From a phage, in sequence record PZ386957.1: 64,000 nt of DNA; one strand, given 5' to 3'. Of this stretch, positions 24,225 to 27,284 are shown piece by piece. Under the pieces are notes generated by a model, which ran no database searches, had not been told where the DNA came from, and worked only from the letters and a program-made list of their open reading frames with translations. How positions within the stretch are numbered: position 1 is the stretch's first letter; each line of letters starts with the position of its first letter. Made by a program: the position numbers and the translations under genes.

Positions 24225-24258
24225 TGTTAAATCCTCATAAAATAAAAGGGAGACTCTC

Positions 24259-24286
24259 ATTATAGAGAATCTCCCTTGTATGTCAA
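24259..24286 (-). promoter_or_regulatory. early sigma70-type promoter with inverted repeat around -10
   Basis: TTGACA-16-TATAAT with GGGAGATTCTC / GAGAGTCTCCC flanking the -10. Confidence 0.6.
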
Positions 24287-24289
24287 GTG

Positions 24290-24815
24290 TTATGATTGCA
24301 TCCAATCACGGCGTAAACTTGGATCATCGCCGTAGAGCATATCGAATAGCTCTTTGTAATTTTCTGGTAAAGTGATAATTTCCGTAACTGGTTCGTTAAT
24401 CACCTTGTGATAGTCTGATTCAGTCAAAGATGCCAACCCTTTGATGTATCGAATGTTATAACCTTTGATGTTATCACGGTCGGCTTCAAAGTCGTCAAGG
24501 CTATAGTACCAGCGTACATCATCACCTTTCTTTGGTTCCGCAATGATAATAGGTGTTTTCACAAACTTAATTCTACCTTCCTCGAACATTTCAGGCCAGC
24601 GAGCAAAGAAAGAAATAAGAGACGGTTTAATAGACCCTAAGCCAATAATCTCGATGTAAAGTTAGTTAGCCCGAAGGCTAACCATCGGTATCTGCGTCAG
24701 TCATTATCGCGATGTTTTTATACATTGTCGTTGGAGTCCGACGACGGCGTACATTCGTTTGCGCTTTGTATGCTACCATGTTCACATTCTGTGTGTCGAT
24801 TTTCTTTAATTTCAT
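24290..24815 (-). CDS. 60: gene 60 topoisomerase II subunit (GyrB C-terminal-like) with programmed translational bypass (coding gap)
   Basis: Segment 1 (24815..24681) encodes MKLKKIDTQNVNMVAYKAQTNVRRRRTPTTMYKNIAIMTDADTDG then TAG; after a 37-nt gap the frame resumes at GGC 24643 as LGSIKPSL...RYIKGLASL...DWMQS (track ORF 24290..24589). Both halves align with remembered T4 gp60 either side of its hop. Confidence 0.8.
24644..24680 (-). other. translational bypass (hop) coding gap with take-off hairpin
   Basis: Take-off GGT (24683..24681) followed by UAG and hairpin AGCC-UUCG-GGCU, as at the T4 gene 60 take-off site; landing GGC at 24643..24641. Confidence 0.75.
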
Positions 24816-25650
24816 CGATATACCTCACTAATTCTTCGTCATTATATGGATTATAACCATCTTTAAATCTGTCAAACATCTTAACGACCGATTTTCTAGG
24901 ACAGCTAAGGTTTAACGCTTTATGACATTTAGCCGCGCCAGTAGCTTTAAATCGATTAGGATCGTAGTTTGACACAAACCAATCATAAATGTCAATCGTG
25001 TGGATAATCGCTTCTTTTGGTGTTAATGGTTGTTTATACCATTTCATGCTACGCATTACAGCAGCACCAGCAAGAGACGCTTTTCTAATTAATTCTTTGT
25101 TGTGTTTGTTTATTCCGTAGAACTCACCTGATAGAACAAGCGGATCATCGACCGCTAATTGTCTACGTTCGCCTTTATCGTTGATATAGATTGTTCTGCC
25201 TTTTGCTTTCTTATTATCAAAGTGTCGGCCTTTATTCAGTCCTACATAAAGATCCTTGTTTTGTTTGTATTCCTCTTTAGAAATTATAACACATTTACCA
25301 TCACTGACGCGTTTAACAGACAAACGACCTACCATCATTTCTTTAGAGAAGTTGGAAACTACTGTTCTATGTTGTTCTCTCGCGAATTGGTACATTGCAC
25401 CTGTCTTATATTTTCCGCTATTTGTCATGCGGTTTAAGGCGTAGTGCATTTTTCTGTTGTTATAAATCTTGGTTAACAGTATATGAGCAAGAAAGTGCTC
25501 TCTATATGTAAACGAAACAAGATTGGAATCGTCATCACTCCCACCCATAGATTTGGGTAGGATGTGATGAACTTCGATACCTTTATCACGAACGAGACCT
25601 CGTAACCGGCCTTTTTCTACTAGTTGGTTATAGATCTTTTGATAATTCAT
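24718..25650 (-). CDS. HNH homing endonuclease (MobA-like) inserted between gene 39 and gene 60
   Basis: 310 aa; EVHHILPKSMGGSDDDSNLVSFTYREHFLAHIL is an HNH motif; 4-nt overlap with gene 39 stop; 3' end overlaps gene 60 segment 1 in another frame. Confidence 0.8.
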   Translation of the reverse strand: MNYQKIYNQLVEKGRLRGLVRDKGIEVHHILPKSMGGSDDDSNLVSFTYREHFLAHILLTKIYNNRKMHYALNRMTNSGKYKTGAMYQFAREQHRTVVSNFSKEMMVGRLSVKRVSDGKCVIISKEEYKQNKDLYVGLNKGRHFDNKKAKGRTIYINDKGERRQLAVDDPLVLSGEFYGINKHNKELIRKASLAGAAVMRSMKWYKQPLTPKEAIIHTIDIYDWFVSNYDPNRFKATGAAKCHKALNLSCPRKSVVKMFDRFKDGYNPYNDEELVRYIDEIKENRHTECEHGSIQSANECTPSSDSNDNV

Positions 25651-27185
25651 AACATTCTCTTAACCTCCACCCATTCACCGTTAATCAATACTTCATCGTT
25701 AATATTAACAATAATTTTCTCACCTTGCAAGTCTAGCTCGAAAAACTCACCATCTACCATTTCTTCGGAGGTGGGAACACCAAACTGTAAACCAGTGATC
25801 GCCATAATGTTAAAAATTTCGGCATTTTTAACAATTGCAGTTTCTGGTTGTCCCCACGTTGTAAGAGTTTTACCTCGCAACGGGAAACCGCCATGTAAAT
25901 CTTGATCACGTACAGAGATCAGATAGTTGATCGCGGAATCACCTTCCGTCAAAAACAGGGTAGTTTCTGCGTCAGTTCCAATAAGGTTAGCTTTAACGTG
26001 TTTTGCTACCTTAGCCCGTTTTGCTGCCTTTGCTGCCTTAGTCGCTGCCGCTTTATCTGCTGCCTCTTTGCGTGCCAATACGACCGCGATAATAGGCATG
26101 ATAATATTTTCTTTCTTCGCAATGACTTTAGCCAGCTTTTTAAAATCCAGATCAATGTGACGCTTGATATCACCAGTAGGGTTAGTCAAACGTTCTTTCG
26201 TCTGGGAATCAAAACGCAAGTTAGGCAATTCACGAACAATCAAAATACAGGTCAAACCAGACTTAACCGCAGCTTTAGTAACATCAACTTTATATTCTTT
26301 CTTGATTCGTTTTACAATTTCCTCACATAGATCATCTGTTACATAGTCTACGTGTGTTCCCCCGTTTTTGGTAAACAGACCATTAGCAAAGGATACTGAT
26401 TTAAAACCTTCACCTTCAACCGCAGGAACTAGAGCAAGTGAAAAGTTTTTATCCTCGATGACAAACGGATCATCATTGTAGAGTTTAGCATACTCTTTGA
26501 ACTTGCTGGTGATTCTCTTTCCGTTAAACTTAAACGTGATTTTAGGAAAGATAACACTCAAAGAATACAGACGGTCACAAATCACATCTGCAATCTCTTG
26601 TGACATAATCATCCCTTCAAAATGATCAAAATCAGGACAAAATGTAACCTTTGTTCCCTTTAATTTTGATGGCTTAGATGACCATGTAATATTTTCCGCA
26701 CCGTTGGTACATTGTACGGTTAATTCATTCTCGCCATCGCACGTTACACCCGTAAACCATGCGGAGAAGTATGCAGTTAACGCGCTGCCGATCCCATTCA
26801 TTCCCATAGTAACGCGGTTGGTATCATCAAAGTTAGATCCGGCTTTAGCTCGTGTCCATGCAGCGACTGGTTGCGGGATCTGTTTTCCTTCCGGTGTCGT
26901 TACGATATGTTGAGGAATACCGCGACCATTATCCGTTACCGATACAATGTTATCTTGAATATCTACGCTGATTACATTAGCAAAATCAAAATTTGTTCGG
27001 ATTGCTTCGTCTACAGAGTTGTCGATGATCTCATCGATGATTTTAACTAGCCCAGGAACATATGATACAGTTGTCCATTTACCATACAGGAATCTATTAT
27101 GTGATTCGTATGTAGTAGACCCGATATACATCGATGGTCTCTTAAGGCAGTGAGCACGATCATCTAAGAGTAAAAATTCACTCAT
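25647..27185 (-). CDS. 39: DNA topoisomerase II large subunit gp39 (GyrB-like ATPase/Toprim)
   Basis: 512 aa; IIDNSVDEA, DNGRGIP, GKQIPQ, GLTCILIV and Toprim region typical of GyrB-type ATPase, as in T4 gp39. Confidence 0.92.
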   Translation of the reverse strand: MSEFLLLDDRAHCLKRPSMYIGSTTYESHNRFLYGKWTTVSYVPGLVKIIDEIIDNSVDEAIRTNFDFANVISVDIQDNIVSVTDNGRGIPQHIVTTPEGKQIPQPVAAWTRAKAGSNFDDTNRVTMGMNGIGSALTAYFSAWFTGVTCDGENELTVQCTNGAENITWSSKPSKLKGTKVTFCPDFDHFEGMIMSQEIADVICDRLYSLSVIFPKITFKFNGKRITSKFKEYAKLYNDDPFVIEDKNFSLALVPAVEGEGFKSVSFANGLFTKNGGTHVDYVTDDLCEEIVKRIKKEYKVDVTKAAVKSGLTCILIVRELPNLRFDSQTKERLTNPTGDIKRHIDLDFKKLAKVIAKKENIIMPIIAVVLARKEAADKAAATKAAKAAKRAKVAKHVKANLIGTDAETTLFLTEGDSAINYLISVRDQDLHGGFPLRGKTLTTWGQPETAIVKNAEIFNIMAITGLQFGVPTSEEMVDGEFFELDLQGEKIIVNINDEVLINGEWVEVKRML

Positions 27186-27284
27186 TATTAAACCTCTTCA
27201 TAACATATCCATAACTTACTGCAACCGACACAAAGACGGCTGCAACAATCATATTAAAAATTGAGTGATTGTCAAGTATATGAC

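What the first reader, a model, noticed from the sequence alone, without database searches (positions are those of the whole stretch)
24290..27185. Topoisomerase II large subunit split by an intact HNH homing endonuclease cassette
The GyrB-like gene is divided into gene 39 (512 aa) and gene 60 (~161 aa) by a 310-aa HNH endonuclease ORF. The HNH start overlaps the gene 39 stop, and its 3' end overlaps the first 98 nt of gene 60 in another frame. The HNH motif appears intact. This fits the picture of an endonuclease plus bypass element as one mobile cassette that invaded an ancestral single topoisomerase gene.
Basis: partly seen in the sequence, partly recalled or inferred. Interest (0 to 1): 0.65.

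Follow-up and report, generated by a model that had tools for sequence, protein, structure and literature searches.

The report
Homing endonuclease plus ribosome-bypass cassette
An RB49-like (Krischvirus) coliphage has its topoisomerase large-subunit gene split by a T4 mobA-type homing endonuclease that brings its own ribosome-hopping (gene 60-type bypass) signal; this kind of element is already known, and this is a new lineage and sequence variant of it.

Summary
On the minus strand lie gp39 (27185..25647, 512 aa), an intact 310-aa HNH ORF (25650..24718, ATGA overlap with the gp39 stop), and gene 60 starting at 24815, 98 nt inside the HNH ORF. Gene 60 gives 161 aa only if ribosomes skip a 40-nt gap (24680..24641). 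That gap has take-off GGU, UAG, a UUCG hairpin, a GAG mini-SD 6 nt before the landing codon, and landing GGC.

The window is a Krischvirus, about 94% identical to Phi1/RB49-type phages elsewhere. All 59 Krischvirus records have one unsplit 60+39 gene. A 1138-nt insert replaces 66 nt of that gene with clean junctions.

This is the MobA/bypass mobile cassette known from T4 (Bonocora 2011) and from six other phage clades plus metagenomes (Manning & Atkins 2022). It is a new member, not a new kind. It differs in its Krischvirus host, a longer MobA, a 40-nt gap and GGU/GGC codons. Homing and bypass activity are inferred, not tested.

In passing, the same take-off hairpin interrupts phosphoesterase and RNase HII genes of uncultured large phages, next to other putative homing endonucleases. 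This looks unreported and more interesting than the finding itself.

The parts
27248..27275 (-). sigma-70-like promoter upstream of gene 39 (TTGACA-16-TATGAT, 11/12)
   Evidence: Consensus scan. It is a pattern match only. The total number of promoter-like sites in the region is not above the shuffled expectation.
25647..27185 (-). gene 39: topoisomerase II large subunit, N-terminal piece (512 aa, GHKL ATPase + transducer + first half of Toprim). Native part 27185..25776; element-encoded C-terminal extension (CTE, 42 aa, PTSEEMVDGEFFELDLQGEKIIVNINDEVLINGEWVEVKRML) 25775..25650; stop 25649..25647
   Evidence: Pfam HATPase_c, DNA_gyraseB. Alignment with the unsplit Phi1/E26 protein and with T4/S16 gp39 shows the CTE is homologous to the T4 and S16 CTEs.
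24638..25775 (-). MobA-type mobile element (about 1138 nt) that replaces 66 nt (nt 1411-1476) of the ancestral 60+39 gene
   Evidence: BLAST and junction alignment against Phi1 and E26. The 5' break is clean after GGTGTT. The 3' boundary is ambiguous by a few nt (24637-24643).
24718..25650 (-). mobA-like HNH homing endonuclease gene, 310 aa, intact
   Evidence: It is 39-41% identical to the MobA of T4-like, Aeromonas, Proteus and Acinetobacter phages, all of which sit between split topoisomerase genes. The H-H-N-H-H residues are invariant. It is 80% identical to one 310-aa protein from a Logan contig.
24823..24826 (-). GAGG Shine-Dalgarno 7 nt upstream of the gene 60 ATG
   Evidence: Read from the sequence. 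Conserved in L011.
24681..24815 (-). gene 60 segment 1: element-encoded N-terminal leader (NTE, 45 aa). It comprises 30 unique residues (24815..24726) and a 15-aa 'homR' copy of the deleted Toprim segment, MYKNIAIMTDADTDG (24725..24681). The take-off codon GGT is at 24683..24681
   Evidence: homR differs from the parental sequence at 8 of 42 nt, all synonymous. The nascent-peptide residues reported as conserved (Y16, Q19, V22, R24, Y32/33, M, T) are present.
24663..24684 (-). take-off stem-loop UGGUUAGCC-UUCG-GGCUAACUA (9 bp), which includes the take-off GGU and the UAG stop (24680..24678)
   Evidence: Fold: -12.9 kcal/mol, z = -3.96, 0 of 200 shuffles as stable. Across 5 distinct clade sequences, 100% of cells are paired and the pairs involving the take-off codon covary as UA/AU/GC.
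24641..24680 (-). 40-nt coding gap: UAG + hairpin + AU-rich spacer + mini-SD GAG (24652..24650) + 6 nt + landing codon GGC (24643..24641)
   Evidence: spacer 72% A+U; no GG dinucleotide between the hairpin and the landing codon. The first 33 nt of the gap are identical in L011, although the two elements are only about 80% identical overall.
24290..24640 (-). gene 60 segment 2: second half of Toprim + TOPRIM_C (116 codons + TAA). TTA 24640..24638 is probably still element-derived
   Evidence: It is only 80-82% identical to MobA-less Krischvirus phages, which are 97% identical to each other here.
24246..24277 (-). intrinsic-terminator-like hairpin after gene 60, overlapped by a 12/12 promoter-like site (24286..24259) for the next gene
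   Evidence: The sequence is shared with Krischvirus relatives and with L011.

Best explanation
This is a MobA-type homing-endonuclease cassette with a gene 60-type programmed translational bypass, inserted into the Toprim domain of the single topoisomerase II large-subunit gene of a Krischvirus (RB49/Phi1-like) coliphage. Shown: the insert, its parts and their homology. Inferred from the T4 system: (1) Genes 39, mobA and 60 are probably transcribed as one unit, from the promoter-like site upstream of gene 39 to the terminator after gene 60. (2) gp39 ends in a 42-aa element-encoded tail, and mobA is translationally coupled through the ATGA overlap. (3) Ribosomes start gene 60 at 24815 and translate 45 codons. 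With GGU in the P site and UAG in the A site, the nascent leader peptide and the UUCG take-off hairpin make peptidyl-tRNA-Gly (anticodon GCC, which reads GGU and GGC) let go. The ribosome slides 37 nt, the GAG mini-SD pairs with 16S rRNA, the tRNA re-pairs with GGC at 24643..24641, and decoding resumes at UUA, giving a 161-aa gp60. (4) gp39, gp60 and gp52 assemble into active topoisomerase, with the element-encoded tails acting as an assembly bracket. (5) In mixed infections MobA nicks the intact Toprim-coding site of cassette-free relatives, and repair copies the cassette together with flanking DNA. The 40-nt gap plus synonymous changes in homR protect the carrier from its own enzyme.
For: Unsplit gene in all Krischvirus relatives and clean junctions. 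MobA homology with intact HNH residues. CTE and NTE homologous to those of T4 and S16. Every bypass feature listed by Manning & Atkins is present: matched wobble pair GGU/GGC, UAG, UUCG hairpin, GAG 6 nt before landing, AU-rich spacer free of cognate triplets, and the conserved leader residues. Hairpin pairs covary with the take-off codon across clades. A second, 80%-identical element (L011) keeps the first 33 gap nucleotides unchanged, keeps the same 40-nt length and keeps a 310-aa MobA. The flank downstream of the insert is 80-82% identical to relatives, against about 94% for the genome background and 91-96% for the next gene, as expected for co-conversion during homing from a diverged donor. 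The homing, self-immunity and bracket functions come from T4 work as summarised.
Against: No experiment was done: neither bypassing nor MobA cleavage was tested here. There is no solved-structure relative by sequence. The Pfam HNH score of 20.4 is just below the gathering cut-off of 21.4. The nearest cassette-free relatives are only 85-89% identical in this gene, not 96-99% as in the published clades, so no donor or recent recipient has been sampled. The divergent flank could also reflect faster evolution after the split, or ordinary mosaicism: another divergent patch, 26500-27100, lies far from the insert. The MobA C-terminal 25 residues are read from the NTE-coding DNA in another frame and may be a functionless extension.
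Confidence: 0.85

Rival explanations
1. This is a domesticated or decaying relic. The cassette is fixed in this lineage, bypassing is still needed to make gp60, but MobA no longer homes: it is inactive or has no targets.
For: In T4, KARL-1 and Aes012 the endonuclease is a pseudogene while the bypass persists. No cassette-free relative closer than 85-89% in this gene was found. The two known members are already 20% diverged. The Pfam HNH score is marginally sub-threshold.
Against: The ORF is full length and the catalytic H/N residues are invariant. Its length of 310 aa is conserved in L011 despite 20% divergence, which argues for purifying selection on the protein.
Confidence: 0.2
2. There is no bypass. 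The 45-aa leader ORF and the downstream 99-aa ORF (ATG 24589) are translated separately, or the C-terminal piece is dispensable.
For: An in-frame ATG at 24589 opens a 99-aa ORF.
Against: That ORF would lack LGSIKPSLISFFARWPE, and the leader carries the essential Toprim DxDxD motif (IMTDADTDG), so neither piece alone restores the domain. The take-off/landing pair, hairpin, mini-SD and gap length are conserved between two elements that are 80% identical overall, and the hairpin covaries across clades. T4 biochemistry shows bypassing for the homologous signal.
Confidence: 0.03
3. The split or insert is an assembly chimera between a Krischvirus and another T4-like phage.
For: Identity to Krischvirus phages drops in the flanks of the insert.
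Against: The junctions are in frame and give the canonical CTE/NTE architecture. homR encodes exactly the Krischvirus peptide YKNIAIMTDADTDG. An independent contig from another sample (SRR7892483) has the same arrangement followed by a Krischvirus downstream gene.
Confidence: 0.01

Closest known systems
Phage T4 mobA / gene 60 cassette (Huang et al. 1988; Bonocora et al. 2011, PNAS 108:16351, cited and from my own knowledge)
   Same: The insertion site in the Toprim domain is the same (after the ...GLxxG codons, up to the DxDG Gly). The order is the same: gp39+CTE, HNH MobA, NTE+homR, UAG, CC-UUCG-GG take-off hairpin, GAG mini-SD 6 nt before landing, then ...LGS. The leader residues Y16, Q19, V22, R24, M39 and T40 are shared.
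   Different: MobA is only 39% identical. Take-off/landing is GGU/GGC (tRNA-Gly GCC) rather than GGA/GGA (tRNA-Gly UCC). The gap is 40 nt rather than 50. The NTE is 45 aa rather than 46. mobA is intact here but a pseudogene in laboratory T4. The host phage is a Krischvirus, not a Tequatrovirus.
Salmonella phage S16 cassette (clade 3 of Manning & Atkins 2022)
   Same: GGU/GGC take-off and landing, UAG, UUCG hairpin and a 45-aa NTE.
   Different: The S16 gap is 48 nt, its MobA is 269 aa and 38% identical, and its mobA/NTE overlap is short.
Acinetobacter-phage clade 5 (fHyAci03, KARL-1, Stupor, Abraxas, metagenomic MGS1)
   Same: These have short gaps: 43 nt in fHyAci03 and 40 nt with GGU/GGC in MGS1. 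The spacer sequence is similar (..ACUUCGAG..).
   Different: fHyAci03 takes off from Asp GAU. MGS1, Stupor and Abraxas have no in-frame UAG (they use the hungry codon AGG) and have GNRA loops. The window combines the 40-nt gap with an in-frame UAG and a UUCG loop.
MobE insertion inside nrdA of Aeromonas phage Aeh1 (as summarised)
   Same: A free-standing HNH endonuclease splits an essential gene, and the two halves reassemble with the help of added tails.
   Different: It has no bypass cassette and sits in a different target gene.

Membership tests
MobA mobile element (HNH endonuclease + bypass cassette in Topo2L; Bonocora 2011, Manning & Atkins 2022) | Inserted in the Toprim-coding part of the topoisomerase II large-subunit gene. 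The 5' end lies near codons 466-473 and the 3' end lies just after the DxDG glycine. 55-75 nt of the host gene are deleted. | tested here: met
   The break is after Phi1 nt 1410 (codon 470), homology resumes at nt 1477, and 66 nt are replaced.
MobA mobile element | Encodes an HNH endonuclease homologous to T4 MobA. | tested here: met
   tblastn E=1e-54 with 39% identity over residues 1-284 to T4-type MobA. Best hits are 40% identical MobA genes between split topoisomerase genes of Aeromonas phages. phrog_655 at E=4e-51. Catalytic residues are invariant.
MobA mobile element | Adds an in-frame C-terminal extension of about 44 aa to ORF1, and adds to ORF2 an N-terminal extension of 44-45 aa made of about 30 unique residues plus about 15 aa of homR. 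| tested here: met
   The CTE is 42 aa. The NTE is 45 aa (30 unique + 15 homR). homR is 81% identical in DNA to the parental sequence, and all differences are synonymous.
MobA mobile element | Published size ranges: element 1097-1106 nt, MobA 269-279 aa, mobA/NTE overlap 8-32 nt. | tested here: not met
   The element is about 1138 nt, MobA is 310 aa and the overlap is 98 nt. The same 310 aa is found in L011. This is a descriptive range from 28 genomes, not a mechanistic requirement. The excess comes from a missing stop codon that lets mobA read on through the NTE-coding DNA.
MobA mobile element | Closely related genomes lack the insert (independent, recent insertion). | tested here: met
   59 of 59 Krischvirus records lack it. 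However, the nearest are 85-89% identical in this gene, not 96-99%.
MobA mobile element | The endonuclease nicks cassette-free targets and drives cassette inheritance, and the bypass insert confers self-immunity. | not testable with these tools
   This needs biochemistry and phage crosses. The only indirect sign is the divergent downstream flank.
Gene 60-type programmed translational bypass | [quoted passage not shown] | tested here: met
   GGU 24683..24681 and GGC 24643..24641. GGU/GGC pairs are already recorded in S16, Stupor, Abraxas, MGS1 and MGS12.
Gene 60-type programmed translational bypass | [quoted passage not shown] | tested here: met
   UAG. 9-bp UUCG hairpin, -12.9 kcal/mol, z = -3.96. 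Covariation across clades.
Gene 60-type programmed translational bypass | A mini Shine-Dalgarno lies 5-7 nt 5' of the landing codon, within an AU-rich spacer that has no premature cognate triplets. | tested here: met
   GAG at 24652..24650, 6 nt before GGC. The spacer is 72% A+U and has no GG after the hairpin.
Gene 60-type programmed translational bypass | The nascent-peptide signal in the leader is present (Y16, Q19, V22, R/K24, Y/F33, M39, T/S40). | tested here: met
   MKLKKIDTQNVNMVAYKAQTNVRRRRTPTTMYKNIAIMTDADTDG has all of them, shifted by one after residue 31.
Gene 60-type programmed translational bypass | Ribosomes actually skip the gap and make one polypeptide. | not testable with these tools
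   This needs a reporter assay or mass spectrometry.

The most novel reading that the evidence does not exclude
The take-off module of this cassette (Gly codon GGU + UAG + CC-UUCG-GG hairpin) may not be confined to topoisomerase genes. It may be a portable 'bypass plug' that unrelated free-standing homing endonucleases use to disrupt their own target sites inside essential genes without destroying the protein. The exact 18-mer from this window recurs in uncultured large phages in three other genes. It lies inside a metallophosphoesterase gene (22- or 26-nt gap between G and H of DTHFGH), an RNase HII gene (35-36-nt gap in DEAG|RG) and a glycosyltransferase-like gene (21-nt gap). In the first two it sits directly downstream of NUMOD3/HNH-like or PHROG 'homing endonuclease' ORFs. 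Close relatives have the uninterrupted gene and no endonuclease. For the window itself, the corresponding reading is that the Krischvirus cassette is an active seventh genomic clade. It would offer a natural 40-nt, tRNA-Gly(GCC) variant that can be tested directly in E. coli.
Probability: 0.5. Interest if true: 0.8.

Novelty: new member of a known kind. Interest (0 to 1): 0.35.

Why it matters
For the finding itself the value is modest. It extends the MobA/bypass element to the Krischvirus genus, which is not among the six genomic clades listed in 2022. It also supplies a natural variant that infects E. coli and could be tested in the standard bypass assays: 40-nt gap, GGU to GGC, in-frame UAG, UUCG loop, and a 310-aa MobA overlapping the leader by 98 nt. 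The unusually divergent flank and a second element 20% diverged suggest the cassette has circulated among RB49-like phages for some time. The larger potential value is the side observation. Gene 60-like take-off hairpins interrupt other conserved genes next to other homing endonucleases. If confirmed, this would overturn the view that programmed bypassing in phages is exclusive to the topoisomerase gene, and it would make its biological role as endonuclease self-immunity testable in several independent systems.

Tried and rejected
(1) A PDB sequence search with MobA gave no hit at E<=0.01, so there was no structural check of the active site.
(2) The 5.8-billion-protein search returned only one relative at E<=1e-20, the 80%-identical Logan protein. 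The exact MobA protein is not on record.
(3) An IMG/VR search with MobA found only N-terminal HNH-domain matches of other endonucleases and no cassette relative.
(4) Exact 18-mer scans of IMG/VR and JGI metagenomes found no further topoisomerase cassettes of this type.
(5) Scans with the T4-type take-off (GGATAGCCTTCGGGCTATC) and the Asp-type take-off gave only four intergenic, terminator-like hits and none, respectively.
(6) The window's gap, leader and MobA strings are absent from the supplementary files of Manning & Atkins. Gapped alignments there could hide a match.
(7) Bonocora et al. 2011 is not held in the library, so its results are cited second-hand.
(8) No second MobA paralogue and no second take-off hairpin exist in the window.
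(9) Internal initiation at ATG 24589 and assembly chimerism were considered and rejected (see rivals).
(10) Eight metagenomic hits of the 18-mer (L088 and similar, '..RWEPG GGT TAG..') look like part of a structured RNA and were not analysed.
Full report
OBSERVATION. Gene 39 runs 27185..25647 (512 aa; Pfam HATPase_c and DNA_gyraseB). A 310-aa ORF runs 25650..24718, and its ATG overlaps the gene 39 TGA as ATGA. Gene 60 starts at ATG 24815, behind a GAGG Shine-Dalgarno at 24826..24823. This start is 98 nt inside the 310-aa ORF and in another frame.

The quoted '~161 aa' for gp60 is reached only if translation skips a gap. Forty-five codons end in GGT (24683..24681) followed by TAG. The Toprim reading frame resumes after GGC (24643..24641) with TTA GGG TCT..., and 116 further codons run to TAA at 24292..24290. 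The joined protein hits TOPRIM_C.

WHAT THE WINDOW IS. Megablast places the window in the genus Krischvirus (RB49, Phi1 and GEC-3S-like coliphages). It is about 94% identical over 22 kb of the replication module. Across the topoisomerase gene it is only 85-89% identical, and the middle 37% of the query has no match.

Every one of the 59 Krischvirus records covers only the topoisomerase parts. The three inspected (E26, G5211, Phi1) annotate one continuous 60+39 gene of about 607 codons. Their other endonuclease genes lie outside that gene.

ANATOMY OF THE INSERT. Homology with the unsplit gene ends cleanly at window 25776 (Phi1 gene nt 1410, after GGTGTT) and resumes at 24637 (nt 1477). About 1138 nt therefore replace 66 nt. 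The protein alignment shows what the insert supplies:
- a 42-aa in-frame tail on gp39 (PTSEEMVDGEFFELDLQGEKIIVNINDEVLINGEWVEVKRML), homologous to the tails of T4 and S16 gp39;
- the endonuclease;
- a 45-aa leader for gp60, made of 30 unique residues plus MYKNIAIMTDADTDG.

This last 15-aa stretch is a copy ('homR') of the deleted Toprim segment. It encodes exactly the Krischvirus peptide but differs from the parental DNA at 8 of 42 positions, all synonymous.

THE ENDONUCLEASE. The protein is 39-41% identical over almost its whole length to MobA of T4-like phages (E=1e-54). It is similarly close to the endonucleases that sit between split topoisomerase genes in Aeromonas, Proteus and Acinetobacter phages. 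It matches phrog_655 'homing endonuclease' at 4e-51.

In an alignment with five homologues, H28, H29, N43, H52 and H56 of the HNH motif are invariant. The Pfam HNH hit is marginal (20.4 bits against a cut-off of 21.4), and no solved structure is detectable by sequence.

The protein is about 30 residues longer than published MobAs. The usual stop is missing, so the frame reads on through the leader-coding DNA. The only close relative found is also 310 aa.

THE BYPASS SIGNAL. The 40-nt gap reads UAG CCUUCGGGCUAACUAACUUUACAUCGAGAUUAUU GGC. All features that define the gene 60 signal, as listed by Manning & Atkins, are present:
- Take-off GGU and landing GGC are readable by one tRNA-Gly (anticodon GCC; my own knowledge for E. 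coli).
- An in-frame UAG follows the take-off codon.
- A 9-bp take-off hairpin with a UUCG loop spans 24684..24663 (-12.9 kcal/mol, z = -3.96).
- A GAG mini-SD lies exactly 6 nt before the landing codon.
- The spacer is 72% A+U and has no GG after the hairpin.
- The leader residues Y16, Q19, V22, R24, Y, M and T are present.

Across the window, T4, S16, Pm5461 and fHyAci03, every hairpin cell pairs. The three pairs that involve the take-off codon covary: U-A, A-U and G-C at the third codon position.

Read-through of UAG would stop four codons later at UAA. The gap shifts the frame by +1, so no simple alternative restores gp60.

A SECOND MEMBER. The protein search found one relative, an 80%-identical 310-aa protein on a 1951-nt Logan contig from SRR7892483. 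That contig (L011) has the same layout: CTE, mobA, leader MNLKKIKLENVDLIAYKAQTNVRRRRTPTTMYKNIAIMTDADTDG, GGT TAG, and a 40-nt gap ending in GGC. A Krischvirus-type gene follows.

The two elements are about 80% identical overall. The first 33 nt of the gap are nevertheless identical, and the differences cluster in the 6 nt between the mini-SD and the landing codon. This indicates nucleotide-level constraint on the hairpin, spacer and mini-SD.

SIGNS OF HOMING. The native 3' part of gene 60 is 80-82% identical to cassette-free Krischvirus phages, which are 97% identical to each other there. It is 77% identical between the two cassette carriers. The next gene downstream is 91-96% identical.

This fits co-conversion of the flank from diverged donors. 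Faster evolution after the split, or ordinary mosaicism, cannot be excluded: a second divergent patch lies at 26500-27100. No cassette-free sibling at 96-99% identity was found, unlike in the published clades.

COMPARISON WITH WHAT IS KNOWN. This is the mobA/gene 60 cassette of T4. It was shown to be one mobile element by Bonocora et al. 2011 (cited; the paper itself is not held). Manning & Atkins (bioRxiv 2022) found it in 28 genomes of six Myoviridae clades plus 13 metagenomic cases.

That paper does not mention RB49 or Krischvirus. The window's gap, leader and MobA strings are absent from its supplements.

GGU/GGC pairs (S16, MGS1 and others) and 40-nt gaps (MGS1) are already known. What differs here is the combination of a 40-nt gap with an in-frame UAG and a UUCG loop, together with the 310-aa MobA, the 98-nt overlap and the 1138-nt element length. 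These last values lie outside the published ranges of 269-279 aa, 8-32 nt and 1097-1106 nt.

The cryo-EM study of T4 and T6 topoisomerase II supports the view that the added tails act as an assembly bracket without affecting activity.

VERDICT. The novelty is 'new member of a known kind', and interest is about 0.35.

SIDE OBSERVATION (outside the window). I scanned IMG/VR and JGI metagenomes for the window's take-off 18-mer GGTTAGCCTTCGGGCTAA. This gave no topoisomerase hits. Instead, the motif interrupts other conserved genes of uncultured phages, on contigs up to 570 kb.

(a) Metallophosphoesterase. The sequence reads ...MIYFTSDTHFG GGT TAG CCTTCGGGCTAACTAA GGT CAT AAT AAT ATA..., a 22-nt gap between the G and H of the metal-binding DTHFGH motif with matched GGT/GGT. 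One subgroup has a 26-nt gap with GGT/GGA, and one locus has GAC at the landing position.
- The joined protein aligns in one piece, residues 2-184, with uninterrupted phosphoesterase genes of more than 1100 phage records and hits Metallophos from the N-terminus.
- Among 28 IMG/VR relatives, 23 have the continuous gene and no endonuclease nearby.
- Five carry the insert. Two of those have, directly upstream, a Zn-ribbon/NUMOD3 ORF with an HNH-like C-terminus. Three have the insert alone, two of them with a UGCG loop variant.

(b) RNase HII. The interruption is GIDEAG GGT TAG hairpin ...AAAA GGT | AGA GGT CCT (RGPLAGP), a 35-nt gap. A second locus has a 36-nt gap with AGT at the landing position. 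In the 388-kb contig the upstream ORF hits DUF7487 and two PHROG 'homing endonuclease' families.

(c) A glycosyltransferase-like gene is interrupted by 21 nt with two in-frame stops, with GGT/GGC as the codon pair.

Literature searches found no report of these cases. Manning & Atkins state that MobA elements are found only in Topo2L and call the bypass cassette unique.

An 18-mer is expected to occur by chance a few tens of times in about 1e12 nt. Chance does not explain three things: the restoration of conserved motifs across the gap in three unrelated genes, the presence/absence polymorphism among relatives, and the link with endonuclease ORFs. Because the stem must pair with GGU-UAG, part of the sequence identity could be convergent rather than homologous.

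Noticed in passing
L013, L014, L016-L020, L084, L087, L095, L096, L100, L103, L104, L106, L109, L116, L121, L123, L125 (IMG/VR and JGI contigs; e.g. L096 4660-4720, L087 8300-8400): The window's take-off motif (GGT TAG CCTTCGGGCTAA) interrupts a phage metallophosphoesterase gene between the G and H of DTHFGH. The gap is 22 nt (TAG + hairpin + TAA + GGT), or 26 nt in one subgroup, with matched GGT/GGT codons. The joined protein is collinear with more than 1100 uninterrupted phage phosphoesterases. Of 28 close relatives, 23 lack the insert and lack the upstream NUMOD3/HNH-like ORF. Of the 5 with the insert, 2 have that ORF. This is a candidate gene 60-like bypass plus homing endonuclease pairing in a non-topoisomerase gene, and no report was found in the searched literature.
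   Followed up: partly
L094 445-485; L083 (= L012, 388-kb contig) oriented 2758-2800, endonuclease-like ORF L083 8177..9064 (-): The RNase HII-like gene is interrupted after GIDEAG/GLDEVG by GGT TAG + the same hairpin + an AU-rich spacer. The gap is 35 nt with GGT/GGT in L094 and 36 nt with GGT/AGT in L083. The frame resumes with RGPLAGP/RGSLAGP and an intact 175-aa remainder. In L083 the upstream ORF hits Pfam DUF7487 and two PHROG 'homing endonuclease' families, and it overlaps the start of the RNase HII gene.
   Followed up: partly
L015 10231-10255: A glycosyl/heptosyltransferase-like ORF (RILIFRSGAFG|DNIILTP) is interrupted by a 21-nt in-frame insert with two stop codons (GGT TAG CCTTCGGGCTAACTA GGC). 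No endonuclease gene was seen nearby.
   Followed up: no
L088, L090, L092, L093, L097, L101, L102, L107: Eight metagenomic hits of the same 18-mer share a conserved context (..GAGCCTGGTTAGCCTTCGGGCTAATACGATG.CTCCCTGTT.AAAA..ACAGGGTATCAAAA..). It looks like part of a structured RNA rather than a coding interruption. It was not identified.
   Followed up: no
window 26500-27100: A patch inside the N-terminal half of gene 39 is only 73-86% identical to Phi1/E26, whereas the neighbouring 25900-26500 is 93-96% identical. This is mosaicism about 0.7-1.3 kb from the cassette. It could be a second recombination tract or part of a long, discontinuous co-conversion tract.
   Followed up: no
L001 1620-2348; L002 1620-2348 and 4180-4743 (Krischvirus E26, G5211): Some cassette-free Krischvirus genomes carry other free-standing endonuclease genes immediately upstream (729 nt, 'putative endonuclease') or downstream (HNH_3, 564 nt) of the intact 60+39 gene. 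The topoisomerase locus is therefore a recurrent landing zone for different homing endonucleases in this genus.
   Followed up: no
window 24641-24695 and L011 1108-1162: In both Krischvirus-type cassettes, CGAUG (covering the Asp codon before take-off) can pair with CAUCG, which lies immediately 5' of and overlaps the GAG mini-SD. This would extend the take-off hairpin into a two-tier structure that brings the mini-SD next to the take-off site. It appears in the MFE fold of the window and partly in that of L011. Its significance is unknown.
   Followed up: no
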